Source: Elsinoe ampelina (Eukaryota). From it: DNA of 60,331 bases. The notes under the pieces are model-generated. The model searched no databases. It saw only the letters and a program-made list of their open reading frames with translations, and was not told the origin of the DNA. How positions within the stretch are numbered: position 1 is the stretch's first letter; each line of letters starts with the position of its first letter. Below are positions 4,021 through 54,900 of this stretch, in pieces. The translations under genes and the position numbers were made by a program. The stretch covers positions 549,533 to 609,863 of the forward strand of contig ML992515.1 of assembly GCA_010093995.1 (NCBI GenBank), read 5' to 3'.

Positions 4021-6093
4021 ATGTCCAGTGAAGTAGTCCTCTCGCCGACGATAGCGGTTGGAGAGTACATATGGCGAAGGCCCGTTCTCGTCTGATTCTT
4101 CTAAAGGTAGTACTGAGTGTATCAGGATTGCCGAGCTCGGAATAGAAACCATCATGGTAACGCTTTCTATGTTACCACCCAAGCTTGTCTGAGGTCCTAC
4201 AGGGTCTTCCTGGCGACTTCAACTTGCAATTGCTAGATTACATATACAAGGTGAAAGGCCTTGGATGGAGTATGCCGAGCACATGATACCAACATAGCTT
4301 TGGCTGATAAGGTGTAGTCGGGACCGGGAACGAGCTCAATGCTTCCTATGCTGTGGATGGGTACTCGAGAGTTAAGAATGTCCCTGGATGCATAGTCACA
4401 ACGCACGGTGTTGGTAGACCACCCATGTCGGTCCAGATCCTCCTGATACTTATGCTTTGTATAGGTGAACTAAGCGCTCTCAATGGCATAGCTGGGTCTC
4501 TCACCGAGCAGAGCAAGGTGATTCATATTGTTGGGCAGACGACCAGATCCATGCAGAAGAACAAGCTCATGATTCACCACTCCATTGGCTTTGACCCAGA
4601 CCACCAGATCTTCAACACTGCATCGAAACGCTTCAGAGTCGCTGAAGCCGAGTTGTGGGAAGCAGAAAATGCACCGGCAGAGATCGATGTAAGCTTCATA
4701 TTGCCCATATCACGACTATCAGCTGATCTTTCACACAGCGTGTCATCAGAGAGTGTATCCTAAAGTCAGGGCCGGTATACATCTTCATACCTCTGGATTT
4801 GGCAGACGAGCGTGTCCCTTCGGAGCTACTGAAGACACCGCTAGATCTTTCACCGCCGACTGGTGAGCAGATCAGGACCACCGCAGAGCGTGCTGCAAAG
4901 GCCATCGGCGAGGCCATACTGGCATCCAAGAACCCAGTGATATTCGTCGACGGGCTCTTGATGCGACACAACGCCGTCAACGAAGCCCGTGAGCTAATCA
5001 AAACCCTCGGCTTCCCCGTCTTCAATTCAGGAATCGGCATGGGCATCCTCGACCCCAACTCCCCCCAACTCGTCGGCACCTACGGCGGCGCCACCAGCAA
5101 CCCCGGCATCTCCGAAGCCTTCGAAGCCAGCGACCTTCTCCTCGTCCTCGGACATCTCCCAGCAGACACCAACTCAGGCGGCTTCTCCCAACAAATGCCC
5201 GCAAGCAAAACCATCGACTTCCGCCCCACGTCCATCAAGCTCCTCGGCACCACCTACACAGACCTGTACTACCTCACCTTCCTCCCCCTCCTCACAACCC
5301 ACCTATCCACTCTCCCGCTCCCCCATTCCCCCATGCCAGTCATCCCCCCCTACACCCTCACCCGCCCCCACTCCCCTCCTCCCAAGCCCTCACGACCCCC
5401 ACCTTCTGGCCCTCTTTCTCCCACTTCCTCCAACCCCACGGCTCCATCCTAGCAGACACCGGCACCTCCCTCTTCGGCCTGCACGACGCCACCTTCCCTT
5501 CCCCCATACTCTACAACACCCAGACCTACTACGGCTCAATCGGGTGGGCCACGCCCGCCGCCTTCGGCGCCGAGATCGCCCGGCAAGAACTCGCCGCCCT
5601 CCCCGAGGGCCACGCGGTGAGGGGGAAAGCGCAGTGCGTGCCCTCGCGCACGGTGCTGGTGACGGGGGACGGGAGTATCCAGCTCACGGTGCAGGAGGTG
5701 GGGAGTATGATCCACTACTCTGCGCCCGTGGTGATCGTGGTGATCAACAACGACGGGTACACCGTCGAGAGGGCGATCCATGGTGCGAGGCAGGGGTATA
5801 ATGATATTGTGCCTTACCGGTGGAGCAAGGCGTTGGAGTTTTTCGGGATGGACGAGGGGGAGGCGGTGAGGAGTTATGTTAGGGTGGAGACGAGGGGGGA
5901 GTGGGAAGTGGTGTTGAAAAGGGAGGATTTGAGGAGGCCGGATGGGGTGAAGATTGTGGAGGTGGTGATGGACAAGTTTGATGCGCCGTGGAGGATGTTG
6001 GTGCAGATTGGACGGAGGGGGGAGGGGGTGAGGAGGGAGATGGAGGAGGGGGGGTTTGTGCTTAGGGAGGCGAGGGCGGGGGAGAGTGGTTGA
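4021..6093 (+). CDS. Thiamine-diphosphate 2-oxoacid decarboxylase (pyruvate/indolepyruvate decarboxylase family); 5 introns, apparent 1-nt frameshift near 5344-5390
   Basis: Spliced read: MSSE..GEYIWRRIAELGIETIMGLPGDFNLQLLD, NELNASYAVDGYSR, GVGELSALNGIAG, QTYYGSIGWATPAA and the ThDP motif GDGS...INNDGYTVERAIHG. The 4799-frame must shift into the 5401/5617-frame inside a C-rich tract. Confidence 0.85.
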
Positions 6094-6127
6094 TTGGGGG
6101 ATGGAGATGGTAGATGTGAGGGGTTGT

Positions 6128-7929
6128 CTATGTTGGGAAGCGAAAGTCGATCCTCCTGTTGCCGTGGAACTCTTCGTGCTCCGTGTCGATTTGGTATGCC
6201 ATTTGCTCGCTCGTTGTCATCTGTTCCCATTGCTTGTCTCGCTTGCTGTTCACTCTGTTCATGATCATCTTGTTGATCACGAAGAGGAGACAAGCGAGCA
6301 GGGCCACAGCTATGAGAAACTTGTTGCCGTTGTAGTAGTATGGTTCGTCATCTTTCTGGTAGACCTGGGACGCAACGATAGCGCCGGCTAGTGTCAAGAC
6401 GTTGAGGATCGTAACGGCAATGGCGCGCTTCTTCACGGAGAAGGTGGCTTCGCATGTCCATGCTATGAGGACGGGGTAGTAGCTCGGAGCTAGAAATATC
6501 AGTCAAGTATGACGAGTCGTGGGAGAATCAGCTCACATGCAACAATGGAGGCGGTAAGGCCATAGCGCTCCCACATCCCGATATGCTCGGGTACCGTCTC
6601 CAAAGCTATGAGGAATGGTATCGGGAAAAGATGGGCAAGGGTGCAATGCCAGGTGCGCTCCTTGAAGTACTCGCTACTCCATGCTAGAAGCAGAACAGTG
6701 ACCATTTGAATGAGTGCAGGCGGGACTTGAAGCATATTACTGTTGAAGACGGAGAAGTGTAGCCGGCGGAGTGTGAGTCCAAGATATTGCCTGACTGGCA
6801 GATATGATATGAGGCCGAGAAAGCTGCAGGTGTAGAGAATCCACTGCTTCTTGTCGATCAAAGTATCTCTAACTTCCGCCAACGATGGCCGTATTTTCAA
6901 GGCGGATTGACCTTTAGCTGGGTCATCTCGTAGCAGCCGATTGACCATGATGGTCTCTTCCCGGTCGCTGTACCAAGGACTGCGACATATCAAGCTCTGT
7001 GTATCCGTCACACACCAAGGTAGATAGAGCAGACTCTTAAAACCAGTCAGTGGTTGACGCTTGAAAGGCAAGGGTAAGACACACCAATACACCAATCAAA
7101 AGAGTGATGGAGCCTTCAATGAGGAAGAGCCAGAACCATCCTGGTTGCCCAGCCACGCCTCGCATCTTCAGTATGAGAGCTGCCATCAACGAAGCTATGA
7201 TATGGCCAAGCTAGGTACATATGTCAGTACGAGAGTCATGTAAAGATCAAAGGTCATACATCTGTCATGGCCGCCAGTACAGCCAGCCTTGGTGCCATCT
7301 CACTAGTCGTGTAGAATTGCGTGAAGAAATGTACCATGCCAGGCATATATCCGCCCTCGAGCAGTCCTAGCAAGCCACGAACGATGAAGAATGCGGCTCG
7401 ACCGTGTACCAGGCACTGGCAAGCAGCTGTCGAAGTTTAGCCATGCGGTATGCTCCATGTTGCTTTCATACTTACAGACAACCCCGAATGACATGATCAG
7501 AGGAGGAAAGACTGTCTTGAACCCGTACCGCAGAACGAGTATCTGTACAGGAAACTCGGAAAGGAGAACAGCGCTTCTGGTAATCATAACAGCGTTGTCA
7601 AAGTCTCGAGTATCAAGGCCAGCATCGCCGAGGAAGTTATCTGTCAGAGCGTTGTAAAGGTTGAATCTGTCAATGTGAATAACAAGCATCATCAGGCTGA
7701 CAACAAGCAGGAGAAAGCAGTCGGTCTTTCGGACGACTTTGGCTTCCTCCTGGGCAGTCCACGAGACGTCTGGGTTCCATCTATGGCGGCCGAAGAAGTG
7801 CTGGTCAGGTTCTGCGTGGTCTCTTTGGTTCGCCCGATCCTTGGCCTTTGGTCGTAAGGTGATGACGCTGTCAGATCGTTCGCGGGCTGACAAGGTCTCT
7901 GGTAAGACTTGAACTTCAACGAGTGGCAT
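6128..7929 (-). CDS. MFS transporter, anion:cation symporter (Dal5/Tna1-like) family; about 4 introns
   Basis: Motifs WTAQEEAKVVRKTD, DRFN..NALTDNFL.D, RGLLGLLEGG, MRGVAGQPGWFWLFLIEG, RLLRDDPAKG, SQVYQKDDEPYY and a DFRF C-terminus. Start assumed at MPLVEV (7929). Confidence 0.85.
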
Positions 7930-10276: not shown

Positions 10277-10354
10277 CACATGCATGGGCAATGTTGATAG
10301 ATGTACAGATTCGTGAAACGGCTATATACACACGAGGGATATCTACGCAGTGGA

Positions 10355-11378: not shown

Positions 11379-12065
11379 GTTTGCTGCTGCTCTAGGCGCG
11401 ATATCGTGACAACGCAGCTGATTTCTGTGGAGGGACTGCAAGACTTAGCTTTAATAGAATTGGGGAAACAATGGGTTGTAAGACAGCGGAAGAGGCCCGT
11501 ATATGAGCTGTACCTGGCTGCGGGTCCACAAGGTCACGGGGATTACACGGCTTTGTGGATGAAATGGGATGTCGACCAATAAGCAAGCTAGCAATTAGTA
11601 GCAAGGTTCATCAGAACACCCTAAATTTGGAGAAGAGCCTGCGATGAAAAGTTGCGGATGAAGTCAAATGTCATAGTAAGGTAGACACAATGACCGAATA
11701 GCAGAGGGGCTTACCCCACAGCGGGGCATCTGCAGCAGACCGAGCTCCGATTTGTCGGCTTTCTCGGCTGATGCATTTGCCCAGAGCCGACAAGCGGATA
11801 GTGCACCCAGGCATCGCCTCATGCGTGCGCTGCCTCCATCACTCCTCCACCACGTCAATCATTCCAATTCACACGGTACCTCATGTCAAGCGCACCATGT
11901 TGACTGATGGGAGCGGTGTATCCTGTGTGTTATCACTAAGCGACCTAACAGTGTCCAAGAACATTGCATCTTCGCTATCCAGACAGGTCCACGGGGTGCA
12001 GCCACTGCTCGCGACTAGGTCATGCCAAACGCTCGTATATACCTCACGCAAGCACCTAATACCGA

Positions 12066-12688
12066 TCACATCGTCTCCCAACCCTCCTCCATCCTTCCCA
12101 ACTTCCCCCGACCCCTGAACTTTTCCACCACAGTCCCTTGCTCACTCAACATGACCCTATCACCTTGATCACCGTACTGCTTCAGACTCCGCCACCTCTC
12201 CAGATCGATCGGGTTGCGCTTATCCCCATGCGCTTCATCGGGGTGCTCCCAATGCCCCTTTGAGAAGCCGAGAAGTGTCGTCACCTTGCCGAGCTCGATA
12301 TCGTAGACCATACTGCAGATTGTGCCGGTCTCTTCGAGCCAGTTCACTTGCCACAAAGCGCCGGGCCGGATGCATTGGTAGGTGGCTGTCTGGTAATTTT
12401 TGCGGCCGGCCATGGGGCCGCCGTGGATGGCGTAGACGATGCCTGGGGGGAATTTAGTGGTCATGGGATAATATCTGTGGAGAATAGGGCGTGGGAGACA
12501 AGAAAACCGCGCTGGAATCAAGGATATGGCGGAAGGGGAAGGGCGCACATACGGTCAGAGGAGAAGAACCACGCTTCATAGCGCCATTTCTGGGGATTGC
12601 CATCTTCGTCCTGAGCGTCGTAGTCGTAGAGGAGGTGTACGTCCTTGAGGTCTCTCTCGAAGGCTTGTTTGTCGAAGGCCGGGGGCAT
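12066..12688 (-). CDS. Phenolic acid (ferulic/p-coumaric) decarboxylase, PadA/PadC-type; 1 intron
   Basis: Exon 12688-12553 MPPAFD...HLLYDY...KWRYEAWFFSSDR, intron 12552-12443, exon IVYAIHGGPMAGR.NYQ...WQVNWLEETGT. Matches the PAD signature YxY..W.YE..YxIHGGxxAGR..WxExTGT. Confidence 0.85.
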
Positions 12689-12936
12689 AGCGGACTTTTA
12701 CAGATGGTGAAGTTAAATTGTCTGATGAGGAATAGTGTGACGGGTCAATGCGAGAGTGGACAGCGCTTTGAATCCGAGAAGTCGAAGAATTATGTTGATA
12801 CAGCTGCTGATCTGGTTGCAGAGCCAGATACGTCACAACGGCGCAAAGTCAAACCCTAGTCTTCACGATACTGCGCGGGACAAAGTCCAATACCACCGGG
12901 GGTACCATTGCTCGACTGGTGTGCTCCGAGAAATCA

Positions 12937-15602: not shown

Positions 15603-16006
15603 GATACTGGATTCGATGAGATGACCGATGTGATGGATGAGCCGGGAACGGAGACGGAAGTGTCGCCGTTGTCGCACGACCGCTTGAGGGAGGTGGCGGA
15701 AAAGGCCTCCGCGCAGTCAGCGATCGACGAGTACATGGCGAACAAAAGGGCAAGTATGAGTGGTGAGGGATTGGCGAAGCTATCCATCTCTTCTCCAGCC
15801 CAGGAGGTGATCACCGCGCGTGTGGTAAGCATTGAATAGAGCAGTCCTCATCTAGGAGGAAAAAAGAGTCACGATATACCACGAGCGAAGCGGCATGAGC
15901 AGCACGAACTAGACGCAAACAGAAAAGCATCCCGTACCAAACAAACACATTACATTAACAATCGGCCCTATTTCTTTTGTTCATAACATCATCACTTTCC
16001 CAACCG

Positions 16007-17143
16007 CTACGTCGCCAATCTCTCAGGCACATCCCACGGCGCCTCAAACGGCACCATCTCCCACGGTCCCTCACCCCAGTACCTACTCGAATACGTCTCC
16101 CGATCGGTAAGATGCATATACCCCTTATAATTCTGCATACTGAGGTACCTCACGCTCTGCCCTTCTCCCGCCGTGAGCGAAACGAAACACCTCACCCCTC
16201 CCCCGTCCTTGCTTTCCACCCTCGCCACTTTCGCGCTCACGACATCCCACCCTTCTTCTTCCTCCTCCCCGTCCGACGGAGAAGCAAAGGGAGAGGAAGG
16301 GCGGAAATATATCGTCCCCCCACCGCCCGTCGCGACGGACGCGACGTAGCTCGTGTTCACCACAGCAGGATGCAGCGCGCCGTCGACGAGAGCGAAAGCG
16401 CTGCGCTCAGGGGTGGAGATGGCGAGGTTGGTGTTTGCGCGGAGCATGTTGAGCAGGTCGAGCCAGGGGTAGGCTGTGCGGCCGTCTGTCTTGGAGGGGC
16501 CGGTGGAGAGGGCGAAGGAGGAGAGGGGACAGAGGGATGGGTCCAGTTGGTCTGTCGCTGCTCCTGGGGCGGGGGAGGCCTGGCGGGGTGCGACGGCCGG
16601 AGTGGGGGTAGGGGTTGGGATGGGCGAGACAGGGAACGGGAGGAGCTCAAAGGGGCCGGAACCCCATTGTCGGTTGGAATAGTTCGGGTCTGAGGTGAGG
16701 TGCAACCAGCCTTTGTAGTTTTGCATGGAGATGAAGGTGTTGTTGCCGCTGGCGAAGGTGGCGTGGCATTTTTGGGATTTGGCGTTCCATTTGGCGGTCA
16801 CGAAGATGGGTTTGCCGCCTGCTTTTCCTGGAGGGTGGAACTCGATGACGCCGCCTTCTGGGGGCACTTTGGCGAGGATCTGCGTGTTGTTGGCGGAGTA
16901 GAGACGAGAGTTCTTCACCAGGAAGGTGGCGCGGGAGGGTGTGTCGATGTCCAAGGTGGAGATGGCCCGGATCCAGTCCGTGTTGTCGAGCCAGAAGAAG
17001 GCTTCGCGGCCGTCGGTGATGGAGGGCCCGAGGGAGACGGCGAAGGTGGTGGGGCAGGAGGGGGGGTACTTCTTTTGCGTGGTGGCCGGGAGGGCGAGGG
17101 CGGAGGCCGCCGCGAGGAGGGGGAGAAGGGTAGAGGGGTGCAT
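16007..17143 (-). CDS. Secreted protein made of two tandem copies of a ~145-aa unknown domain
   Basis: Signal peptide MHPSTLLPLLAAASALALP. Two repeats (CP..FA.S.GPS.TDGR.A..WLD ... SMQNYKG..HLT....YS.R.WG.GP.E..PF) joined by a P/T/A linker. Confidence 0.8.
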   Translation of the reverse strand: MHPSTLLPLLAAASALALPATTQKKYPPSCPTTFAVSLGPSITDGREAFFWLDNTDWIRAISTLDIDTPSRATFLVKNSRLYSANNTQILAKVPPEGGVIEFHPPGKAGGKPIFVTAKWNAKSQKCHATFASGNNTFISMQNYKGWLHLTSDPNYSNRQWGSGPFELLPFPVSPIPTPTPTPAVAPRQASPAPGAATDQLDPSLCPLSSFALSTGPSKTDGRTAYPWLDLLNMLRANTNLAISTPERSAFALVDGALHPAVVNTSYVASVATGGGGTIYFRPSSPFASPSDGEEEEEGWDVVSAKVARVESKDGGGVRCFVSLTAGEGQSVRYLSMQNYKGYMHLTDRETYSSRYWGEGPWEMVPFEAPWDVPERLAT

Positions 17144-17822
17144 GATTGTGAGTGGGTAGGTGTGAGAGAGATATGGGAGGAATGCCAGAGGGATATATAT
17201 TGTTACTTACATCTCTGTGTCACCGGATGAGGCGCCGCTTTTTCTGCACGGTCATAGAGGATTTTCGTCTGCATGGGGCTTTTTGGTATAGTCTTACGTG
17301 AAGTGCGACTAGCAGGCTCGTATAAAAGTATAAAAGGTGGAAGATGAGAGACTGGCCCTGAAAATGAAGTGGGTCATGTGCTCTGTGCTCGCATTCCCGC
17401 GATCCCGTCTCGTCAAAGTGGCTACAGTAAGTTTACTGTGATTGCTGGAGAATCAGCCGCCGCAGATCGTCCCCTGTCTCTGCTCCTTCGGAAGACGGAG
17501 GTCTGCGCTTCCTGACCTATCAGATTTGGGGCCTGGCTGACTAAGCTCATGCCCGTAATTTTTGCATGTTCATAACGCGAACGACAGCAGCTTTGATTGC
17601 CACCATCGTTGACTGTTAAGCGTATACAAGAGTAAGCACAAAGTCGTGGGGATGAAGCAACATAAGCGTCATTTTAAAATTGGCGTCCAAGTGCAAGGGG
17701 CTCGCTCTACTACCTGATCATATACGTCTTTGACAGGAGAAGACTACGATTCTGCCTTCTACGCACTTTCTAGTTTGCAACCTTGTACTTGATCTCTGGA
17801 AACAAAGATTCGTGTTGCCACC

Positions 17823-21915: not shown

Positions 21916-23100
21916 ATGGCACCTCCTGCAACTTCCGCCATCACTATGGCCTTTGCGAATCAATCCAATCTTGTCGACACCCTTGGTAGCGACTCCAACC
22001 TGGTTCCTGCGCGCTTCACTGCTGCTGCGGCCAACCATCCCGGAGGTCTTCTCCCGACTCCCCCTCACTCCATCTCTCCCAACCTGCCCGCTCATGCGGT
22101 TCGCGCTGGGCTCGCTTCTCCACCTCACCGTTCCTTGGATCATGATGTCGACTTGCAGGAAGCCCTCGACCACGCAAGAGCTCAGGATCAGCCAAACCTG
22201 CCTCCCGTTCCCTTGAGCAAAGAGGCCTTGTCCGATCTGCAGAAGGCTGAGGTCATCACCCCCACTCTCCTGGCTAAAAAGTACTTGCCCAAGATTCTAC
22301 TCGGTCACGGCGACGTCGCTATGCGCCACATCCTCGGGTGTCTCAATACCGATGTTCCTGGCTTCTCCAAGTTGGAACCCAACAAGGCCAGGCGCGTTGT
22401 CGGAGCAGCGCTCGAGAGTCGTGCTGGTGGTGGAGATGATGGCAACATCATGTTCGTCAAGGTCGGCTGGGGGCGTTGGTTGGCGCATCCAAAGGGCGAG
22501 AAGCCATCATCCCGCTCTATCAACACCTTCAGCCGCAGTCGCCTTTCTCCTGCAGCTTCCGATGTCAGCAGCACTGCAGCTTCATACTCCTCCACCTACC
22601 CTGTCAACAAGAAACTTCTGGTGTCATCCAAGATGCTCGGGCAGAGCTACACCGGATCCGACATGCCTTCTCTGGACGAAGGCCTCGAGGACATGTCCAT
22701 GAGCGATCACGAAGTTGACAACATGTCCCTCGACGGCTCCGACTCTGACTCTCTTTCCGACAGCGAGGGCGACGAGACCGACGAAGAGGATTGGGCTGCT
22801 ATCGGAGCCGAAGCCCTTCGTCGTCGCGACTCGAAACCTGCCGCAGCCACCGGGGGCGTAAGACGGAACTACAATCTTCTGTGCATACCCGGCCCTGTCT
22901 ATAAACGCCGCTTCTCTTCAACCAGCGGCATCTCCAAGACCTCTCGTCCGCGCGTCGCCTCATCCGCGCCGAACGATCACTTCATTTCTCGTCGATACTC
23001 TTCTCAGAACACCTTTAATAAGAACAATCAGGCCGACGCCATGGATGTGGATCCCGAGCGTGAAGCCGCTCGTGCTCTCTTGAGCTTGGGGTCCATGTAA
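21916..23100 (+). CDS. STB3: Stb3-like Sin3-binding / RRPE-binding transcription regulator
   Basis: ITP.LLA..YLP.ILL.HG..A.RHI..L...VPGFS....KARR.V..ALE...F.KVGWGRW, a TDEEDW motif and a C-terminal EAARALLSLG. Probable 5'UTR intron 21752-21886. Confidence 0.85.
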   Translation: MAPPATSAITMAFANQSNLVDTLGSDSNLVPARFTAAAANHPGGLLPTPPHSISPNLPAHAVRAGLASPPHRSLDHDVDLQEALDHARAQDQPNLPPVPLSKEALSDLQKAEVITPTLLAKKYLPKILLGHGDVAMRHILGCLNTDVPGFSKLEPNKARRVVGAALESRAGGGDDGNIMFVKVGWGRWLAHPKGEKPSSRSINTFSRSRLSPAASDVSSTAASYSSTYPVNKKLLVSSKMLGQSYTGSDMPSLDEGLEDMSMSDHEVDNMSLDGSDSDSLSDSEGDETDEEDWAAIGAEALRRRDSKPAAATGGVRRNYNLLCIPGPVYKRRFSSTSGISKTSRPRVASSAPNDHFISRRYSSQNTFNKNNQADAMDVDPEREAARALLSLGSM

Positions 23101-24160: not shown

Positions 24161-25362
24161 ATGTACGTGCATCTTCTGAGCCATGCGCATCCCGGAACTT
24201 TGACGTGGCGCCTGTACTATACGCTATAATCATTGGACTGATCATACCAGGCCTATGACTGCCGAGGAGCTCAAAGCTCATCCCGAATACCCGCACATCA
24301 CATGGGACCTCAAGCCATCCCGCAGTGGAGTCTCCTCCGTCGCCGAAGGACGAGGCGGACCTCTCGACATATCATGGGAAATCCACGGCCAAGGACCACG
24401 ACATCTAGTGGCACGTCTCCCAACCCCTCATCTCCCCCCGTCCTTCTCTTCCTTCCCCCCATCCCCTCTTCCCCTCCTCCGCCACCCCTAACTCCCCCCA
24501 GTGGATCATGGGCCTCGCCTCCCTCAAAGAAGCCTGGCAGCGCCAAACCCGCGACTTCGCCCACCTCGAATCTCAAACCTACTCTTCCCTCCTCATCGAC
24601 AACCGCGGCATGGGCCACTCCTCCAAACCCCTCATGCGCTACTCCACCTCGCAAATGGCCCTCGACATCTACGAAGTGCTCCACCACATCGGCTGGACGA
24701 CGCCACGCTCACTCCACCTGGTCGGCATATCCATGGGGGGCATGATCGCGCAAGAACTCGCGTTGCTCGCGCCGGATCTGGTGTGCAGCCTGTCGTTGGT
24801 GAGCACGGCGCCGCGGATCGTGAACAAGGTTGGTTGGTTGGAGAATTTGCGGAACAGGGTGAATTTGTTTGTGCCCAAGAGTATTGATGCGCAGATTGCG
24901 CAGACGAAAGCCAATATGTACACTACCGAGTGGTTGGAGAGGGAGGATGAGACCGAGGCCGAGGTGCAGCGGTTTCCGACGAATGGGGATCGGTTTGCGG
25001 CCGGGGAGGTGAGGAAGAGGAGTGATACGGAGAAGTTCACGAGGACGGGGTTTATTTGTCAGGCGGTGGCCGCGGGGTGGCATTATAAGAGTGCGGAGCA
25101 GTTGGGGGAGTTGGCGGAGAGGGTGGGGAGGGAGAGGATCGCGGTGGTGCATGGGACGGAGGATAGGATGTTGGGGGTTTGGCATGGGGAGATGTTGTTG
25201 GAGGAGTTGGGAGGGGAAGGGAGTGGGGTGAGTAAGTTTTGGTTTGAGGGGATGGGGCATGTGATTCCTATTGAGAAGAGGAAGGAGTTTAAGAGGATTG
25301 TTGAGAGGATGTGTGAGAAGGGGGAGGAGGCGAATGGGAGGTTGGGGGCGAAATTGGGGTAG
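24161..25362 (+). CDS. Alpha/beta-hydrolase; 2 introns (first splits the start codon)
   Basis: AT|intron 24163-24250|G CCT ATG..., WEIHGQGPRHLV|intron|WIMGL, IDNRGMGHS, nucleophile elbow GISMGG, VHGTEDR, GMGH. Confidence 0.85.
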
Positions 25363-25473
25363 GAGGGAGGTGTATAGTACAATTTGTAATATGCTGCTGA
25401 TGCTATATGCCCGGGAAACGCCTCGCTAAGCCCAGATGTAGAGGTGAGATGTACATGGTGTCCTGACAGTGCT

Positions 25474-25917: not shown

Positions 25918-26128
25918 TATGTAGTCGGAAGGGAGTCGTAAAGATGTGGCGTCTGTTGCTCGTGTAGATCGATGCCTGCAGGTCCAGATGATGTCCATCT
26001 CAAGAAAAAGATGCGCGGCATCTTCGGGCCGTCAAGCCGCAGAAATTTTGTCCGCAATGATCGACCTCCACCACTCGACAACTTCGCCTCAATCTGCATA
26101 CAAGTCGCTACCGCGGAGATTTGCAGCC

Positions 26129-30001: not shown

Positions 30002-30347
30002 GTGGCGTTTACGAGGAGCAAGGGCACGATACCAAAAGATTCATTCAAGGAGGAATGATGCTGTATATTTGGCGATGAGCAGCTTCCTTTTCGCTAGATG
30101 CGGTGGGAACCTGCATCTCTAGTACATGGCATGATCAGTATAGCATGTTTTGTATCGAACATCAAGATAATTCCAGCAATGGACACTGGAAATATCATCT
30201 TAAGACTGCCTCCTCCTACCATTTCCCTCTTTCAGGCATGAATGAGTCAATATCAGCTCGACCTCCATCTCTCCTCTTTGCTGACATTGCCACATCTCCC
30301 TTCGTTGATCGGACACCTGTATCGACAATTCCTACCACCAAATTTGT

Positions 30348-31717
30348 ATGGCAAACACCATTACTAAATCGCCTACCTTACGCAAGACCCGCATCGTCTG
30401 TATTTCCGACACTCACGGCGCCTCACCCAAAGACGGCGCGTTCAAGCTCCCCAAAGGCGACGTCCTCATCCACGCCGGGGATCTCACCAACCAAGGCGGC
30501 CATGCGGAGATGAAGAAGACCATCGACTGGATCGCCTCCTCCGACTACGAAGTCAAGATTGTCGTAGCCGGTGCGTTCCCTTCCTCCTTCCCTTTGCCCT
30601 TCCCTCTTCCTCTCGCCGTCCCTCCCCCACCTACTACCACCCCGAGATCCCAACTTCACGACTGATGATCAAAGGCAACCACGACCTCACCCTCTCTCCC
30701 TCCTCACCAACCTCCACCCTCCCCCTCCTCCCCCCCTCCATCCACCACCTCACCCACCAACCCTCCCTCGTCCGCCTCTCCTCCCCCACCGGCTCACACA
30801 CCTCCTTCCGCCTCTTCGCCTCCCCTCACTCCCCTCTCCTCTCCTCGAGCCACGGGGCATTCACCTACACCCCTCGACAAGCCGACGAGATCTGGTCCAC
30901 CATCCCGCTGGACACGGACGTGGTGGTGACGCACACCCCGATGAAAGGGCACTTGGATCTCCACCCCAAAAGGGGAAGGGTGGGGTGTGAAGCGCTGCGG
31001 AGGAGGATGGGGGAGGTGAGGCCTGCGTTGGTGGTGGGGGGGCACGTGCATGAGGGGAGAGGGGGGGAGGTGATCCGGTGGAAGAGTGGGGCGGGGGGCC
31101 AAGGGGGGGTTGGGGGGATGGAGGAGGGGACGAGGTGTTGGGAGGATCCGGCGGCGGGGAGGGGAGGGAGGGGGGAGAGTAGGCTTGATTTGACGGGGAG
31201 GTGGGGGAGGGGGAGAGGGGGGTTGTGGGATGGGGATGGTGGTGTGGGGAGGGGATGGGCGTTGCAGAATGATTTTTCGAGTGTGAAGGGGGTGGTGCCG
31301 GTGAGGACTAATACGGGCAGAAGGGGGAGGGGGAGGTCAGGAGCGAGAGAGAAGGGGTGGGTGGCGGAGGTGAATCGGGCTGGACAGAGGAGCGGGGAGG
31401 TGGAAAATCATGTGTCGTTTTCTGTGGAGGGGGGGGGAGAGGAGACGAGGCGGAGTAGATTGCATCATGAGACGATGGAGGCGTGGACGGGGAGGGAGGG
31501 GAGGAGGGAGACGTGTGTGGTCAATGCGGCTATCATGGCGAGGAGTCATGGGATGGGGGCAAAGAGGTACAATCAGCCGATTGTGGTAGAGATTGATTTG
31601 CCTGTGTGGGGGGAGGGAGAGGAGGACGATGGGTCGGAGGAAGAGGAGGTTCAGCAGGACGAGGGAGATGGGGGAGGGGCTGGAGGGAAGGACATCATGA
31701 ACGTGGATGTGGGATAG
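30348..31717 (+). CDS. Calcineurin-like metallophosphoesterase (MPPED-like); 1 intron
   Basis: TRIVCISDTH, DVLIHAGDLT, VVAG|intron 30570-30674|NHD, VVTHTP, GCEALR, GHVHE, ETCVVNAAIM. Confidence 0.85.
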
Positions 31718-47763: not shown

Positions 47764-50700
47764 ATGACCACCACGACCAACGATGTTTTCGTCGAAGCGC
47801 TGGCCAAATTCAAGCTCAGACTGAAGCCCGAGGAGAGGAACTTCTTCGCGGGGACAACGATTGAAAACCTACATACAACGATCCAAGCAATCCAAAACAG
47901 ACACAGGACCACACGCAAAATCAAGAACCTCAATCGTCTTCGTAAATTCGTGGAAATATTCGATGCTTATTCGAAGACGCTAGACCTCTTCGTGAACGTG
48001 AACGATCTGATTGCATTTGTCTGGGGACCGGTGAAGTTACTATTGCTGGTTAGGAATTTTCAAGACCACTAAATTAGAACGTCGATGCTGACGAGTAGCA
48101 GCTGACCCACAAGGTAGCAGACGCTTTCGATGCGCTTCTGCAGGTGTACCAGCAGATCGGTCATGATTTACCGATCTTCGCGCAGTACAAGGCACTTTTC
48201 CAGGATGAAAGCGCAATGCGTGAGGTACTTCTGGCAATGCTGGAGGTGGTATTTGACTTTCACCAACGAGCATTGAGATTTTTCGAGACGAGTACTTGGA
48301 GGCAGGCATTCAACGCCCAAAGCTTTCGCGCGGATTTTGGCGATGTGCTGCATGATCTTCGGGCTCACTCTGAACTCGTACAGCGGCAAGCAGGGCTGGT
48401 CCATTTTCGACAGGCAAAGTCGGCTCGCGACGAGATGCAGAGAGACTTACTGGAAGTACGGCGGATCCAACGACTTCAACGTCAGACCTACATGATACAA
48501 TGGCTTGCTGCGCCGAACATGCGCCGCATCCAGGAGCATGGACAGATGACCCGAGCCTACAGACCAGAGAGCGGCCAGTGGTTGATGCGAAACGGACACT
48601 TTGCTCAATGGTCCGATCTCACATCGAATGCGAAACCTGGCCTATGGATACATGGGATGCCAGGAGCTGGCAAGACAGTTCTCGCCTCAGTCATCATTGA
48701 TCATTGTAAGCAACTAGCGTCGAGTCGCACATTGTATTTCTATTGCCGACATGGGGAAAGTCATGGCGATCGCTTTGCCGGTATGGCCCGGTCGATGATC
48801 GAGCAATTGGCCGGCTATGATGACAGCGTGTTCGAGTTGCTCTGTACTGCAGCGGCCTCCTCTGGTGCAAGCTCCCCGTTCTCTACCCACAAGGGGTCAC
48901 AAAATGTGCTGCAGACTTGCATAGATGCTGGTCAGCCGACACATATAGTCATCGACGGACTCGATGAGTGCTCTGTGACCGATCAAACAAGGATAATCTC
49001 GTTTCTGAAGTTTCAAACCACTCGATTGCACTCTGTGTCGAGTGACATGCGATACGTACTCCTCAGCCAGAGCGACGCAAACATAGGTCTCCTACTATCG
49101 ACGTTTCCGACTATCAAGATCACCGAGATGGACAACGGCCAAGATATCGAGGCTTTTTGCGCCGCACACGCCTCCGATCTGGAGCGCAAGTTCCAAATCA
49201 CGACTAAGGAGATGAATGATATAGCACGAGGAGTGGCTACGATTGCGGGAGGTAAGCGCGTCCAAATGATGCTCATCCATTCCAACCTCCTGCTCTGGCA
49301 GGAGACGCTAAAGTGTGTTAGGAATGTTTCTCTACGCAAAGCTTGTGATGGACCATCTAAGTCACCAGACGAGTCAAGCAGGACTCTTGGAAGAGTCGAA
49401 GCTCGAACACTTACCACATGGGCTTTACGAAGTGTTCGTTCACCCTTGTGCATTGAGTATTGTAATTGACGGGCTTCCCAGATATGAACGAATCCTGAAA
49501 CGAATACTTGGAACCGGTGAATCTGGGCACAGGCATGATGCATTGAAGCTGCTTGGATGGCTTGTCTGTGCACAAAGACCCTTGAGATGGCATGAGATAC
49601 AGGCAGCGGCGTCTTTCGACTCGGCACGAGGCGAATATGACTCTCATCGGCGCCTCATGGTCGACCATAAAGCCCTGTGTGGGTCTCTGGTCGAGCGATT
49701 ACCCGACGATAGCATTGAGCTTGTTCACTCCACGACGAAAACGTTAGTGCCCGTCTTACTTTACTATATTTTCTACACTGACCAGACCGTCTACAGTCAC
49801 ATTTCGACACACGTTCTTTGCGTACGCAACGAACATCTCAAAATGACCAGGCTCTGTCTGGATCAGTTCTGCATAGCCGCATACGATGCTGGTGTACATG
49901 TTGATCTTCGTTATACTGCAGCACTTGAAGGAGCATTTGTACTCGCAGAATACGCATTAGTGCACTGGCCTGATCATCTTGCTGCAGCGTTTGGAGACGT
50001 AGCAATGGCGGTCAGACCCAACAAGACTGGCCCCGAGATAGCGGACCGGGACATTACTGAAGTAGTGGAAACTCTCGATACCTTTCTAGATCTGCACTGT
50101 CTCGCTACGACAACCAAGCTGAACATTCACAAGTCGATACCCAGATTTGTGTCCAGGATACCAGGACTCGACAATGCCAAGAAGCTTATACAGACATTAG
50201 CGTCAAGGCGGCTTCTCATGGCCATAGGAGGGAATTGCTCGATTGATGTAGAGAACCTAGGTTTGTATCAAGTGCTGCGTACTGTGAGGCTGCACATCGA
50301 ACAAGCGGTGGAGCAGCAGAAAGATATGGAACGCTTGACTTCGTTGTAAGGCGGGAGTCTGTACAAATGCCCTCGGCTGTACTGCAAAGGTTTCCAAGCC
50401 GGCTATGCCACTCGAACGGAAAGGGAGAAGCATGTTCTTGAACACGAAAGGCCCTTTCGCTGTCCTCACACAGGGTGCGTCCACTCCGTCATGGGCTTTA
50501 CCACACAAAAGAGCCTTGACAGCCATTTGACATCGAGCCACGCAGGAGAGCAACTTGAGGATGACTTCGAAGGCGGAAATGCGCCCCATCAGCCGCAAAA
50601 AGCTTTACATCCTTGTGACCAGTGTGGGAAGGAGTTCACCCGAAGACTGAACCTTCAAGCGCATATTCGTACCCACAACAAGGAGAAGCCGTACGTCTGT

Positions 50701-51171
50701 GCGGTGTGCACCAAGGCGTTTGTAAGGCAGGAGGATCGCAAACGCCATGAGACTGCACACGCGCGAAGCCACCGCTGGGTCTGTGGTGGGACACTCAAAA
50801 GTGGTGCGAGCTGGGGCTGCCAGAAAACATTCGCTCGTCCCGACGGAGCCCGGCGACATTTCCGCACGGCGAAAGGGAGAAATTGTGTGGCCGCGGCACA
50901 GGCTGAAAATGCGACAGCAGTATCAGGGAGCGAGTGCTCCATCAGACTGCAGGTACGAGCCTCTGGATCGACGAAAGATGCGAAACTTGGTGATTTTCCT
51001 CTTGACGATGCAGGTCTCGAAACGATTTTGGCAATACAAGAGGGAGACAAGACGAGCGAGACAGGAAACCATTGGAGTGAAACGGAGGATGATATGAGCG
51101 AAGCAGGGAACGATGAACGTACGGGATATCATCCGGATGCATTTGTAGGCACAGAATCTACTTCTTATTAG
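47764..51171 (+). CDS. NLR-like protein: helical N-domain, NACHT, winged helix and C2H2 zinc fingers; 4 introns; in-frame TAA at 50347-50349
   Basis: N-domain ...[20 protein letters not shown]; Walker A GMPGAGKT; Walker [35 protein letters not shown]; fingers [45 protein letters not shown]. Confidence 0.85.
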
Positions 51172-51972
51172 TCTAGCATGAAATGGCAATGCCTCGACGA
51201 GCAGCTTCTTGGAAAGTCATCATCTGTATTGCGCATCAGTGGGCTACTCTACGTGATGTGTAAGCTGAATAGCAAGGTCAGTCGACTATTTCGATCTCGG
51301 GTGCCCCAGTGTGTGATCTCGGTTTCCTCGGCGGTCCAAAGGTCAGAAAACCGCTGCGACGGCAGTCACAGGCGATAAAGTCACGCTTTTCTTGGCTTCA
51401 CCTTCCCGACTGCGCCGACAGCACGAGGCTGTGCTGAATGGCCCTGATTGGCTCACTGGGGCGATCGTGAAGAGTTTCCAGGTTTACATCGCCCCCGTTT
51501 TGCCTTGTTCAGCTGAGTTTGCCTTATTTCATGCTGGGTCTCCAGGCTTCTGATTGGTGAGAATCGACGTACATTGACGTACTCGAGTCTTAGCCAAGCG
51601 GCGTGATTGGCCACAGGCCATTCCAGCTCGAAGGCACCTGAGATAACTTATCCCATTGAACGTCTTGGAGGATCTGGTCGCCCGTAATCAGTTTTGCTTA
51701 CATAAGTTGTCAAAGAATGGCGGTTGTAGTCTTCCACGCACCCACATATCTGATACTACGACGCCGAACTCATCCCTTGATCTGCTTCTATTGGCATCCA
51801 TTGTGCAACATGGCGCCATAAATCGATCCATTAATCGATGACTCAGATCTTGACTTCAGGCCAGAGGTACCAGCCGTCCTGGCTCAATACATGACGGTCG
51901 TCGGTCAAGGTATGATAGGGTCCCCGATTTTTGCGGGGGATTCTGCAGCACGGGGATCCCAGTATTCAGCCT

Positions 51973-54900
51973 TCATCCATGTATCTGAATCCTTTGAACA
52001 CCCCTCTCAATCTCCCCCAAATCCCCCGCCCTCGTCACCCCCTCCGCAGCAACATGATGCTGCCCCCCAACCTCAGCACCACACTCACTGCACCTCGCCA
52101 ACTGCATCGGACCACCACACTCGCCGACCGTGAATGGATGCCCATTGGGACACCTGTACCAGTGACCCGTGCTCCTGAACTCCCTCTCCATAGCCGTGAC
52201 CACTGCTCTGATCTCCTCGTCGCTGACGTCGCTGTAGAACACCCCGTCCGTGAGCATCTTCTCTGTCAGTTCTAGGTCCGCTGCCAGAGCCTTGGTCTCA
52301 GCTGGTAGAGCGGCATGAATAGCGTGGGCGGAGTCGAGGTGAGCCCTGGCCACGTGGCGGAGCGGGTGCTCATCGTCCCAGTTCTCCTTCACGACGCGGT
52401 CGTCCTGCGCGTCAGTGGCCGAGGGGAAGTTCACCTCGATGGTGGCGAATTGGGCGAGGAAGAGATGACACTCTGCCTCTTGCATGGGATGCTTGCCTGA
52501 GGCACAAATGGTGATGAGCTCCTCGCAGCGCTTACGACCGACGCTGGTGTCAATGGTCCGGGTTGTCTTGCTGCTACCGGGACTGTTGCGGTGGATCGTG
52601 AGGTAGTCCGTGATGATGAGCAGGTCGGAGCGCAGGATGAGACAGGCGGCCATGCGGGAGGACTTGGTCTGCAGGACGGAGGAAGCAGGGAAGGTGAATT
52701 GGACTTGGTCGTCGGAAGCCTTGCGACGGTTGGCGAAGGTGACGAGGTCCTGAACCTTGCGGAATGGCTGCTCTGATTGCTGGACCTGGCGGGCGAACTT
52801 GGATAGGTTCTTGCGGAACTTGACGATGCGTTGGTAGCGGTTGGAGCCTGGTAGCTGGGAGATGGTCTTCACCATTGCGTCGTTGCCACCTTTGAGGTCC
52901 AAGTCCGTTGGTGTGATGGTCGAAAAGTCGTGCATGGCAGCGAGCTCGGCCTTCAAGTCCAGGAATTCGTTCATGAGGTTGACATAGCCGGTATTGCTCC
53001 AGGTGATAAATTTAAGAGTGCTCTGGATGAGAAGTGCACTGCGGATGGGACGACCGCACCTAGCGGTGTTGCGCAGAGACTTGCGACAAGTTGGACAGTT
53101 GATCTTGGCTTGGTCGATGTCCAGAGCATATGGCAGATCGCGAGCCGCTGTCGGATGACCATCCACGCCAATCTCGTAGTAGTTCGCAAGGCCGACCAAC
53201 CCGTCCATGCTCTCCACAGTCAGGATGTGACCGCAAGGTAAGAAGATGCAGGGCGTATCGTCCAGATCGACTTCGCTGTAGGTGGAGAACATGATGAGGT
53301 CCACTTGTGTCTGCTTGACATCCTCGTCACAGCAGGTTTGGCACAGCTTCGTTGGGGGACAACGTTCGCCGCAGAGAGACGGACCTGGCAATAATTAGCT
53401 CTAAAATATCAAACCACAAGAATGATCAACCTACACTGATGACCGCAGTCCAAGAGTTGCTCGCATCGCTTTGAGCAAGGCACCCAGTCGCATGGAGCGG
53501 CGCATGGCTGAGAGCAGGCGGCATGAGGACAAGCCGACGAACACTGAGCTTCGGCGCAAGGCGGGCATGGTTCCGAGCACTTTTTGTCGCACTTGGAGTG
53601 ACTGCATTGCATCTCGCAGGGGCGGTTGCATGGCGGACAAGGAGTATCACCGTGACACTTTGCCGCGCAGGAATGTGGGCATGCGTTGTAAGCGCGATCG
53701 CATATTTGTATGCAGATGTCGTGATCACTCTTGACGACTATGCCATTCTCTCGAGTGTTGCACATTGAGCAAGGTCGAAGACAGGTGTGGCCGCAAGCTA
53801 GGATCTCTCCGCACTTCTCACGGCATTGATACTTTTCTGTATCGACACTGGCGCAACAAGCGACGGCGACTTCGTGTCCGCATCCTGGCACAGTCTTCGT
53901 GACTGTTGCACGGCAGACGTACTCCTCCGGGTGACGTGAGATCCAGCAGGATACCTCTTGTGCGACATGTCCGCAGGGGAAGCTGATGTCTCGGCCATCG
54001 ACAAGCTGCTGACAAGTCGAAGGGCACGTATCGCCGCAAAGCTTCGGGCACTCGTGATCGCAGTTCTGGAAGTCTCCCTCGCGGCGAGGGCAAGGCTGAA
54101 GACATTTGACTGCGTCATGACGGAAGTTGGAATGGCATCTTGAAGGACAGGCGTGTCCGCAATCCAAGCGCTTTGGGCAAGGAAGGTGGCAGCCACCGTC
54201 GGGAGCCAGGCGGAGAAAGTCGTCGGGTATCTCCACTTCCATCTTGTGCTCTTCGTGGCGAGGACACTCGATCGGCAAGGCGTGTCCAATGTTGTCGTTG
54301 GCGTCCATGATGTCAATGACGTCCTTCCACATAGGTACACCGGCGCAGGTTGCAGCATCACCGATGATATACATGCCTTGCTGAGCACGTGAGAGCAGGA
54401 CGTTGATCCTGTTGGAGGTCTTGAGGAAGCCACACTGGTGACGTTCATTGCTTCGTACCAGTGAGATGACCACGATGGGGGCCTCTTCGCCCTGGAAGTT
54501 GTCGACTGTAGCCACTCTGACGGCTTGTGCAAGCGATGTCTTGCTGATCAGCGAGGTAGTTGGAGCATCTGCAAGTCCTGCTCGCTCCAGATCTTCTTCG
54601 TCTCGGTCGTCCACCAAGAGCTCGAAGAGATCACTTAAGCTTGCACGGAGCTTACGCAGCTGTCCAAGATACGGGGTCAACACAGCGATCTCGTCCGGTC
54701 GACGCTGGCCTTGCTTGATCAAATGACTCACAAGCGCCGTCACCATCTCGACCTCGAAATCGTTGCTGTGCGAAGCATGAGTACCTCCGGGTCCCTGATT
54801 AGAGGCTTCACGATTGTCGTGATCGAACCAGAACAGTCTCTTCTGCATGCCTTGAACAGGGGCATAGGCGGGTGGTTCGTCGACGAGACTTGGATACAGT

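What the first reader, a model, noticed from the sequence alone, without database searches (positions are those of the whole stretch)
4960..52900. About ten C-rich-to-G-rich switch domains of fixed polarity, independent of gene strand
Seen: 0.5-1.3 kb domains where the + strand is strongly C-rich and then flips to strongly G-rich. Switch points lie near 5600, 12290, 16370, 24760, 30940, 37930, 39350, 42520, 44030 and 52280. Polarity is the same in + genes, - genes and intergenic DNA. The bias covers introns (24411-24501, 30570-30674) and third codon positions, so neither protein nor transcription strand explains it. Inference: a bidirectional strand-asymmetric mutational process from fixed points. 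The polarity matches replication-origin skew and is opposite to cytosine deamination on resected double-strand-break ends. The density is high for origins, so a repair or recombination-synthesis footprint or G-quadruplex selection is also possible.
Basis: partly seen in the sequence, partly recalled or inferred. Interest (0 to 1): 0.75.

Follow-up and report, generated by a model that had tools for sequence, protein, structure and literature searches.

The report
Gene-anchored C-to-G skew blocks
In this Elsinoe-like plant fungus about a third of the genes switch abruptly from C-rich to G-rich about 150-750 bases before their stop codon, an extreme case of a gene-linked skew already described in fungi and not a row of replication origins.

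Summary
Nine of the ten listed switches are strong C-rich to G-rich flips with raised GC. An HMM finds 7 C-to-G adjacencies and 0 G-to-C. The skew is strongest at silent sites. Fourfold sites read G61/C398/A80/T52 in C arms and G338/C51/A59/T64 in G arms, against 565/922/718/764 in nine ordinary genes.

"Same polarity in + and - genes" carries no information, because a C-then-G pattern is its own reverse complement. What it means is that each domain sits inside one gene whose sense strand runs C-rich then G-rich. In 8 of 8 HMM-paired genic domains the G arm ends within 90 nt of the stop codon. In long genes the roughly 1 kb domain lies at the 3' end.

[quoted passage not shown] Orthologues from other fungi show the same flip.

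Replication origins, a break at the switch, G-quadruplex selection and a selected RNA hairpin are not supported. The likeliest cause is a transcription-unit-linked, strand-asymmetric mutation bias. A self-reinforcing R-loop version of it is my inference only.

The parts
5044..6146 (+). Domain in the 3' half of a thiamine-pyrophosphate enzyme gene (TPP_N/M/C). Sense C arm 5044-5604, sense G arm 5605-6146, stop codon ends at 6093.
   Evidence: HMM; Pfam; codon-position skews; stop distance +53 nt.
12025..12800 (-). Weaker domain over the minus-strand ORF 12069-12554 (no family found). Sense G arm 12025-12201 (C-rich on +). The sense C arm, about 12363-12800, is weak and not called by the HMM.
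   Evidence: (third-position skew -0.59, -0.15, +0.68 on the sense strand). The gene is not verified.
15928..17192 (-). Domain covering the whole 378-aa gene 16010-17143 (hypothetical protein). Sense C arm 16410-17192, sense G arm 15928-16274.
   Evidence: G arm ends 82 nt beyond the stop; the ORF is held letter for letter in the ESM Atlas.
24412..25377 (+). Domain in an alpha/beta-hydrolase gene (CDS from 24161, introns 24163-24250 and 24411-24501, stop ends 25362). Sense C arm 24412-24734 including the second intron; sense G arm 24735-25377.
30209..31717 (+). Domain over a metallophosphoesterase-like gene (intron 30570-30674, stop ends 31717). Sense C arm 30209-30971, sense G arm 30972-31717.
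   Evidence: (weak Pfam match, E 3.8e-4, just under the cut-off).
37725..38347 (.). Short C block 37725-37839 and G block 37982-38347, not inside one recognisable gene. The G block covers the region upstream of a TATA-like element at about 38105 and the first exon of the PAN-domain gene. This is the exception among the ten.
38982..39814 (+). Domain at the 3' end of a PAN-domain, Thr-rich secreted-type gene (38189-39813). Sense C arm 38982-39240 (partly poly-Thr ACC codons), neutral gap, sense G arm 39552-39814.
41901..42942 (-). Domain covering the 352-aa gene 41811-42866 (DUF7730/2EXR-like by Atlas features). Sense C arm 42537-42942, sense G arm 41901-42536.
   Evidence: (G arm ends 90 nt before the stop).
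43314..44351 (+). Domain over a short-chain dehydrogenase gene (stop ends 44320). Sense C arm 43314-44032, sense G arm 44033-44351.
51958..52865 (-). Domain at the 3' end of what I read as one long helicase gene with an RZ-type zinc finger (two adjoining ORFs, 51976-53394 and 53412-57797; the join is not verified). Sense C arm 52579-52865, neutral gap, sense G arm 51958-52129.

Best explanation
SHOWN: these are gene-anchored skew blocks, an extreme case of the fungal pattern 'sense strand C-biased upstream, G-biased at the 3' end' (McLean & Tirosh 2011). In about nine of roughly 29 putative genes of this Elsinoe-like ascomycete, a stretch of about 0.8-1.5 kb that ends at the stop codon is rewritten. 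Its upstream part carries C, and its last 150-750 nt carry G, at most silent sites. Introns inside are affected and amino acids are pulled along. Short genes are covered whole. In long genes only the 3' end is covered. INFERRED, about 0.5: the cause is a direction-aware mutation or repair bias tied to the transcription unit. In each arm the G-rich strand behaves like a strand that is repeatedly exposed or left unrepaired, with strong A>G, moderate C>T, and pyrimidine-to-G transversions. INFERRED, about 0.3: the exposure is R-loop-like. Sense transcripts would displace the G-rich sense strand in the 3' arm. Antisense transcripts starting at the gene's 3' end would displace the G-rich antisense strand in the adjoining arm. 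More skew gives more stable hybrids, so a gene either runs away to near-saturation or stays neutral, which would explain the two classes of genes.
For: 1. Gene anchoring. Nine of ten switches lie inside single ORFs. The sense G arm ends +53, +82, +15, 0, +1, -90, +31 and +18 nt from the stop in 8 of 8 HMM-paired genic domains, while 8.1% of the window lies that close to one of 29 putative stops.
2. Three long genes (TPP enzyme, PAN-domain gene, helicase/RZ gene) carry the domain at the 3' end only.
3. Silent sites. C arms: fourfold G61/C398/A80/T52, two-fold Y sites C153/T10, two-fold R sites G38/A48. G arms: fourfold G338/C51/A59/T64, Y sites C72/T127, R sites G262/A37. Nine control genes: 565/922/718/764, Y 774/554, R 689/417.
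4. Introns inside C arms read G5/C56 and G13/C49. Four control introns, and the abH first intron just upstream of the arm (G20/C24), are balanced.
5. Amino-acid replacements against the majority of 79 orthologues: 15 toward C, 4 neutral and 0 toward G in the C arm; 4, 5 and 18 in the G arm.
6. Other fungi. On about 250 kb of metagenome loci holding orthologues (L001-L061), the same HMM finds 17 C-to-G against 2 G-to-C adjacencies. Third-position skew flips from C to G in many orthologues but not in the closest ones. In 32 of 53 a G segment ends 79 nt before to 138 nt beyond the stop.
7. [quoted passage not shown]
Against: 1. No strand-specific RNA, R-loop or mutation data exist here. Antisense transcription through the C arms is assumed, not seen.
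2. Transcription alone is not enough. Transcribed neighbours (RPL24, the gene at 25406-25999, the PHD-finger gene) have no domain.
3. The 5' exon and first intron of abH are transcribed yet unskewed.
4. The G arm stops near the stop codon rather than running through a whole 3' UTR, which fits a termination-zone model poorly. The 2011 paper noted the same difficulty.
5. One of ten domains is intergenic, and locus L012 has a C|G switch at the 5' end of the orthologue.
6. Earlier notes of this scan (unchecked) report a similar gene polarity in a bacterium, a phage and giant viruses. These lack RNA polymerase II, which hints at a more general cause.
7. Only 40 of 880 differences from related organisms were shown, so I could not derive a substitution spectrum.
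Confidence: 0.5

Rival explanations
1. Selection on the transcript or on transcription: C-avoidance near 3' ends to pace RNA polymerase II (the adaptive hypothesis of McLean & Tirosh), selection for G-quadruplexes, or selection for pairing between the C arm and the G arm in the RNA.
For: The boundaries follow the coding sequence (stop codon) more closely than any expected transcript end. The adaptive hypothesis is in print (PMC3315797). Earlier scan notes report similar polarity in organisms with quite different repair systems (unchecked).
Against: Introns inside C arms are at least as skewed as exons, while another intron of the same pre-mRNA is not. G-quadruplex motifs are not above mononucleotide shuffles in any of 16 arms, and G runs are as few or fewer. 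The abH mRNA has MFE -382.6 kcal/mol against -382.8 +/- 9.4 for 12 within-arm shuffles and -392.3 for 8 whole shuffles, so no pairing has been selected. Only about a third of the genes are affected, and a ribosomal-protein gene is not.
Confidence: 0.15
2. Recombination hotspots at gene ends: breaks in the promoter and terminator gaps, with resection into the gene from both sides. The exposed 3' strands would be damaged and filled in, or heteroduplex would be repaired with a GC bias. The switch would be where the two tracts meet.
For: The polarity fits. For breaks at the outer borders, the surviving 3' strand would be the antisense strand in the 5' half and the sense strand in the 3' half, that is, the strands that are G-rich here (my inference). 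The arm lengths of 0.2-0.8 kb resemble meiotic resection lengths in yeast (recalled, not checked here). GC is raised, as with biased gene conversion. The outer borders are sharp.
Against: A break affects both of its sides, yet the DNA just beyond the stop codons is neutral although convergent genes start 35-80 nt away: skew -0.05 at 25401-25800 and +0.10 at 6201-6600. The regions upstream of whole-gene domains are neutral too (17201-17800, 23100-24250). G-to-C adjacencies should then be as common as C-to-G, but the counts are 0 against 7. In long genes the C arm starts inside the gene, far from any promoter.
Confidence: 0.08
3. One reading: a bidirectional process starting at the switch point, either a replication origin or a break or repair-synthesis centre.
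For: Polarity as at origins: the + strand is C(+A)-rich on the left and G(+T)-rich on the right. Some domains have arms of equal length, 561/542 and 763/746 nt.
Against: The domains end at stop codons in 8 of 8. The centres share no motif and lie in conserved coding motifs such as the GxSxG nucleophile elbow of the hydrolase. Spacing of about 6 kb and arms under 0.8 kb are unlike origin skews. The cumulative skew shows no large-scale V. Orthologues in other fungi have the flip at other positions of the same gene, still anchored at the stop.
Confidence: 0.05
4. Assembly or sequencing artefact in low-complexity C- or G-rich sequence.
For: The TPP gene changes reading frame inside its C arm, where there are C runs, with no evident intron. 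A homopolymer indel is possible there.
Against: RNA contigs from two runs and DNA contigs from two related organisms reproduce the stretches. The reading frames stay open and encode conserved proteins.
Confidence: 0.01

Closest known systems
[quoted passage not shown]
   Same: The sense strand is C-biased upstream and G-biased at the 3' end. The bias is seen at fourfold sites and in amino-acid usage. The positive skew peaks at the stop codon. Not all genes show it. The cause is unknown. Their data set included filamentous ascomycetes, among them Dothideomycetes.
   Different: That paper reports averages over all genes and gradual ramps. Here single genes carry abrupt two-block domains, near saturation at silent sites, with raised GC, in only about a third of the genes. 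In long genes both blocks sit together at the 3' end rather than one at each end of the gene. Elsinoe was not in their list.
C-over-G skew around transcription start sites of plants and fungi (Fujimori et al. 2005, PMC555766; only search listing and start of abstract seen)
   Same: C excess on the sense strand in the upstream part of fungal transcription units.
   Different: In abH the C arm begins about 350 nt downstream of the earliest transcribed base seen: the 5' exon and first intron are balanced. In long genes it begins kilobases from the start.
GC skew and R-loops at the 5' and 3' ends of human genes (Ginno et al. 2013, recalled, not read here)
   Same: A G-rich non-template strand at gene 3' ends, proposed to favour RNA-DNA hybrids and termination, especially in closely packed genes.
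   Different: The human skew lies in CpG-island promoters and downstream of poly(A) sites, not in the last few hundred coding bases, and has no adjoining C-rich block. R-loops are untested here.
Skew jumps at replication origins (bacteria; human N-domains; Candida and Yarrowia centromere origins; partly cited in PMC3315797, otherwise recalled)
   Same: The sign of the jump (C/A-rich to G/T-rich on the + strand).
   Different: The scale is hundreds of bases rather than tens of kilobases. Here the borders sit at stop codons, the density is one per about 6 kb, and only some genes are affected.

Membership tests
Gene-polar GC skew of fungi (McLean & Tirosh 2011) | Sense strand C-biased toward the 5' part and G-biased toward the 3' end of the gene | tested here: met
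   All 9 genic domains, on both strands. No ORF of the 24 examined runs from strongly G-biased to strongly C-biased across its length. The PAN gene's first bin is G-biased (+0.47) and belongs to the intergenic 37930 block.
Gene-polar GC skew of fungi (McLean & Tirosh 2011) | Present at fourfold-degenerate sites and outside codons, so not explained by protein selection | tested here: met
   Fourfold counts; introns.
Gene-polar GC skew of fungi (McLean & Tirosh 2011) | Shifts amino-acid usage along the protein | tested here: met
   Replacements 15/4/0 (toward C / neutral / toward G) in the C arm and 4/5/18 in the G arm, against 79 orthologues.
Gene-polar GC skew of fungi (McLean & Tirosh 2011) | Positive skew strongest at the stop codon; skew continues into promoters and UTRs | tested here: inconclusive
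   G arms end 90 nt before to 82 nt beyond the stop, which fits the first half. The C arm does not reach the 5' exon or first intron of abH, and in long genes it is internal, which does not fit the second half.
Gene-polar GC skew of fungi (McLean & Tirosh 2011) | A property of the gene set of the whole genome | not testable with these tools
   No genome is held for this window. Within the window about 9 of 29 putative genes show it.
Replication-origin skew jump | Skew arms run on regardless of gene borders and orientation, over many kilobases, from an intergenic origin | tested here: not met
   Arms are 0.2-0.8 kb, end at stop codons, and their centres are in coding sequence.
Replication-origin skew jump | Origin activity (ORC/MCM binding, nascent strands) | not testable with these tools
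   No such data.
Break-centred single-strand damage scars (strand-switching clusters around a double-strand break) | Loss of C from the 3'-ended strands, so G-rich on the left and C-rich on the right of the break, and both sides of a break affected | tested here: not met
   The polarity at the switch is the reverse. If the breaks were at the outer borders, the far sides should be skewed, and they are not.
R-loop-prone GC-skew regions | G-rich non-template strand in a transcribed region | tested here: met
   G arms on the sense strand of transcribed, spliced genes.
R-loop-prone GC-skew regions | RNA-DNA hybrids actually form there | not testable with these tools
   No hybrid mapping data.

The most novel reading that the evidence does not exclude
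The blocks are the fixed end state of a self-reinforcing mutational runaway. Once a gene's 3' end forms hybrids with its own transcript, and the adjoining stretch with an antisense transcript, the displaced strand loses C and gains G. This stabilises the hybrids further, until silent sites saturate. A gene is then either 'captured' or neutral. If the similar gene-polar patterns noted earlier in this scan in a bacterium, a phage and giant viruses share the cause, this would be a general, still unnamed mutational consequence of reading genes in one direction.
Probability: 0.2. Interest if true: 0.7.

Novelty: new member of a known kind. Interest (0 to 1): 0.42.

Why it matters
The gene-polar skew of fungi was described in 2011 and still has no accepted cause. 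In this fungus the effect is an on/off block of about 1 kb that reaches 66-67% of one base at fourfold sites, up to about 90% in single bins. It differs between adjacent, even overlapping-end, genes. Such contrast makes the question testable with ordinary experiments: strand-specific nascent RNA, hybrid mapping, mutation accumulation and polarised substitutions. It is also a practical warning. These blocks shift codon usage and amino-acid composition, create long spurious antisense ORFs, and mimic origin-like skew jumps.

Tried and rejected
1. Whole-genome analysis was not possible: no genome is held for this window.
2. Domain borders taken from maxima of cumulative skew over-ran the domains. 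I replaced that with an HMM.
3. Shuffling 50-nt blocks is a weak control, because it keeps the skewed blocks. I use it only for the count of adjacencies.
4. My first spliced abH CDS was one base short and gave nonsense. It was redone correctly.
5. G-quadruplex selection: motif counts and G runs are not above shuffles in 16 of 16 arms. Rejected.
6. Selected pairing between C arm and G arm in the RNA: MFE equals that of within-arm shuffles. The first attempt timed out. Rejected.
7. A common sequence motif at the switch centres: no 9-mer is shared by 3 or more of 10 centres. One 12-mer is shared by two, coding for Q-E-L-A in both. Rejected.
8. Substitution spectrum from related organisms: read laying listed only 40 of 880 differences, too few and not polarisable.
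9. No RNA holder was listed as such by the look-up of sequencing runs. Two runs guessed to be RNA did give spliced contigs, but contigs carry no strand or level, so nothing can be said about antisense transcription or expression.
10. Stop-anchoring of C|G pairs in the flanks of metagenome loci: with a crude choice of the highest-GC3 ORF, 4 of 8 pairs end within 90 nt of a stop and the rest are ambiguous. This is weak and I do not rely on it.
11. Convergent neighbours as the trigger: by my unverified gene calls, 7 of 9 genic domains have a convergent gene downstream. This is not significant, and the partner gene is never skewed.
12. The search of earlier findings by place found nothing for this genome.

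Full report
WHAT IS THERE. The window is nuclear DNA of a filamentous ascomycete close to Elsinoe. The hydrolase encoded at 24161-25362 is 98% identical to a protein of Elsinoe batatas, and the next best match is Myriangium at 68%. A composition profile confirms sharp flips from C-rich to G-rich on the + strand, with GC raised to 0.58-0.68, at nine of the ten listed places. The tenth, 37930, is shorter and weaker.

With identical criteria for both polarities, C-to-G switches outnumber G-to-C ones: 9 to 3 (400-nt arms, both beyond 0.25) and 7 to 0 (300-nt arms, 0.3). The few G-to-C calls all sit at the outer edges of C-to-G domains. A three-state HMM gives paired segments:
- 5044-5604 | 5605-6146
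- 15928-16274 | 16410-17192
- 24412-24734 | 24735-25377
- 30209-30971 | 30972-31717
- 37725-37839 | 37982-38347
- 38982-39240 | 39552-39814
- 41901-42536 | 42537-42942
- 43314-44032 | 44033-44351
- 51958-52129 | 52579-52865

It also gives a lone C segment at 12025-12201. There are 7 C-to-G adjacencies (gap up to 150 nt) and 0 G-to-C. None of 20 block shuffles reached 7.

THE KEY LOGICAL POINT. A C-rich stretch followed by a G-rich stretch reads the same after reverse complementation. "Same polarity in + and - genes" is therefore automatic and says nothing against a role for the transcription strand. The informative question is how the domains lie relative to genes.

Pfam, ORF and Atlas evidence places nine of the ten inside single genes or ORFs:
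- a TPP enzyme (+)
- an unverified ORF at 12069-12554 (-)
- a hypothetical gene at 16010-17143 (-)
- an alpha/beta hydrolase (+)
- a metallophosphoesterase-like gene (+)
- a PAN-domain gene (+)
- a DUF7730/2EXR-like gene at 41811-42866 (-)
- a short-chain dehydrogenase (+)
- the RZ-finger 3' end of a long helicase gene (-)

In every case the sense strand is C-rich first and G-rich last.

ANCHORING AT THE STOP CODON. The outer end of the sense G arm lies +53, +82, +15, 0, +1, -90, +31 and +18 nt from the stop codon in the eight HMM-paired genic domains. Only 8.1% of the window is that close to one of 29 putative stops, so the chance of 8 of 8 is about 2e-9. For the ORF at 12069 the figure is +44 by my reading.

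Domains measure 0.83-1.5 kb. Genes of about 1 kb are covered whole. In the TPP gene, the PAN gene and the 5.8-kb helicase gene only the last 0.8-1.1 kb is affected, with both arms side by side.

Borders are sharp. Convergent neighbours whose stop codons lie 35-80 nt away are not skewed. Within the abH pre-mRNA the 5' exon (G25/C33) and the first intron (G20/C24) are balanced, while the second intron, inside the C arm, is G5/C56.

SILENT SITES. Pooled over the eight genes:
- C arms: fourfold sites G61/C398/A80/T52; two-fold pyrimidine sites C153/T10; two-fold purine sites G38/A48.
- G arms: fourfold sites G338/C51/A59/T64; pyrimidine sites C72/T127; purine sites G262/A37.
- Nine genes without a domain: fourfold sites 565/922/718/764; pyrimidine sites 774/554; purine sites 689/417.

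So on the G-rich strand of either arm, A>G is strong and C>T moderate. The purine share at fourfold sites rises from 0.43 to 0.78, so transversions toward G are needed as well.

Codon positions 1 and 2 follow more weakly. Against the majority residue of 79 orthologues, replacements in the window's hydrolase go toward C in the C arm (15 toward C, 4 neutral, 0 toward G). Examples are D>H, E>Q, V>L, G>A and C>S. They go toward G in the G arm (4 toward C, 5 neutral, 18 toward G), for example I>V, P>R, T>S, F>V and K>G. Silent sites are the most affected, introns are included, and protein sites are dragged along. This is the signature of a regional mutation or repair (or conversion) bias resisted by purifying selection.

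REALITY AND CONSERVATION. Contigs of two runs that prove to be RNA (they are spliced) match the abH gene with 0-6 differences. They confirm the introns at 24411-24501 (a GC..AG intron) and 30570-30674. DNA contigs of two related organisms align across the laid 8-kb stretch, including the abH arms, at roughly 9-14% difference, so at least the abH domain is shared by relatives. Only 40 of 880 differences were listed, so I could not derive a spectrum.

OTHER FUNGI. A scan of metagenome contigs with an alignment of hydrolase orthologues returned 79 loci. On about 250 kb (the distinct loci among L001-L061) the same HMM finds 17 C-to-G and 2 G-to-C adjacencies. Third-position skew along the orthologue flips from negative to strongly positive in many loci: L008 -0.47, -0.19, +0.80, +0.93; L058 -0.28, +0.03, +0.93, +1.00; likewise L023, L029 and L041. 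It stays negative throughout in the closest group (L001-L005, L014-L017). In 32 of 53 distinct loci a G segment reaches the last 250 nt of the CDS and ends 79 nt before to 138 nt beyond the stop. Part of this is intrinsic to the protein's G/E/V-rich C-terminus. The flip sits about 230-350 nt before the stop in those fungi and 627 nt before it in the window. The position is therefore lineage-specific while the anchor is the same.

WHAT IS KNOWN. McLean & Tirosh 2011 (PMC3315797; parts 1-3 of 4 read) reported the following for 64 fungal gene sets, filamentous ascomycetes included:
- The coding strand is C-biased at 5' ends and G-biased at 3' ends.
- Fourfold sites and amino-acid usage are affected.
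- The positive skew is strongest at the stop codon.
[quoted passage not shown] They proposed phase-specific mutational regimes of RNA polymerase II, or adaptive C-avoidance. Fujimori et al. 2005 (listing only) reported C skew at fungal and plant start sites. Earlier notes of this scan (unchecked) describe similar gene-polar C-to-G patterns in a Planctomycetota bacterium, a phage and giant viruses.

MECHANISM. Shown: the pattern is direction-aware and gene-anchored, so it must be tied to a process that reads the gene in one direction.

Rejected:
- G-quadruplex selection. Motifs and G runs are not above shuffles in 16 of 16 arms.
- A selected long-range RNA hairpin. MFE is -382.6 against -382.8 +/- 9.4 for within-arm shuffles.
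- A shared centre motif.
- Origins, on scale, borders and density.
- A break at the centre.
- Breaks at both gene ends. These would give the right polarity, but the far sides of those borders are neutral and G-to-C adjacencies are absent.

Inferred: in both arms the G-rich strand carries the changes typical of an exposed or unrepaired strand. For the G arm that strand is the non-template strand of ordinary sense transcription. For the C arm it is the non-template strand of antisense transcription.

My best guess, at about 0.3, is a pair of adjoining hybrid-prone zones: sense in the 3' arm, and antisense, starting from the gene's 3' end, in the arm upstream. Each would be reinforced as skew stabilises G-rich RNA on C-rich template. 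That would explain the 3' anchoring, the fixed scale of about 1 kb, the adjacency of the arms and the on/off behaviour. The supporting biochemistry is recalled and was not checked here: non-template-strand A>G and C>T asymmetry in mammals, C insertion opposite abasic sites by Rev1, transcription-coupled removal of template-strand lesions, and R-loops acting as antisense promoters.

Against this guess:
- Transcribed neighbours are unaffected.
- The G arm ends at the stop codon rather than at a transcript end.
- Antisense RNA is not shown.
- One domain is intergenic.

VERDICT. The thing is a striking, block-like member of a known but unexplained fungal gene-polar skew.

Noticed in passing
window 58400-60331: AT-rich block (GC 0.29) with TpA/ApT 1.9 and (CpA+TpG)/(ApC+GpT) 0.21, against 0.56 and 1.27 in the rest of the window. 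This is the dinucleotide signature of repeat-induced point mutation (RIP), probably a degraded repeat at the window's end.
   Followed up: partly
window 24161-24501: The hydrolase start codon is split by an intron (AT at 24161-24162, G at 24251; intron 24163-24250). The second intron (24411-24501) has GC..AG ends. Both are supported by spliced RNA contigs of two runs.
   Followed up: yes
window 5234-5503: The TPP-enzyme gene changes reading frame inside its C arm, between the TPP_M and TPP_C matches, and I could find no GT..AG intron of fitting length. It may be a real frameshift (pseudogene), an unusual intron, or a homopolymer indel in the assembly (there are C runs).
   Followed up: partly
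window 37725-38347: The one C|G pair that lies outside a recognisable gene. The G block lies upstream of a TATA-like element at about 38105 and runs through the first exon of the PAN-domain gene, whose first coding bin is G3-rich. It may mark an unannotated transcription unit.
   Followed up: partly
window 5583-5594 and 24750-24761: The 12-mer GCAAGAACTCGC occurs only twice in the window, each time within about 20 nt of a switch point, coding Q-E-L-A in both genes. It is not found at the other eight centres, so it is probably chance.
   Followed up: yes
L012:2689-3318: In one metagenome fungus the hydrolase orthologue has a C|G switch at its 5' end (C block upstream, G block over the first 100 codons) as well as the usual G block at its 3' end. 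The rule of anchoring at the stop codon therefore has exceptions.
   Followed up: no
window 24672-25562, 30797-31984, 42010-42933: The skewed arms carry long stop-free ORFs on the antisense strand and in other frames (for example 24712-25425 minus, 238 codons). These are by-products of the composition and could be miscalled as genes.
   Followed up: no
window 48099-51168: Three consecutive + ORFs (NACHT/NPHP3_N with DUF7708, a winged-helix domain, C2H2 zinc fingers) look like one NLR-type gene broken by introns or frameshifts. It has no skew domain.
   Followed up: no
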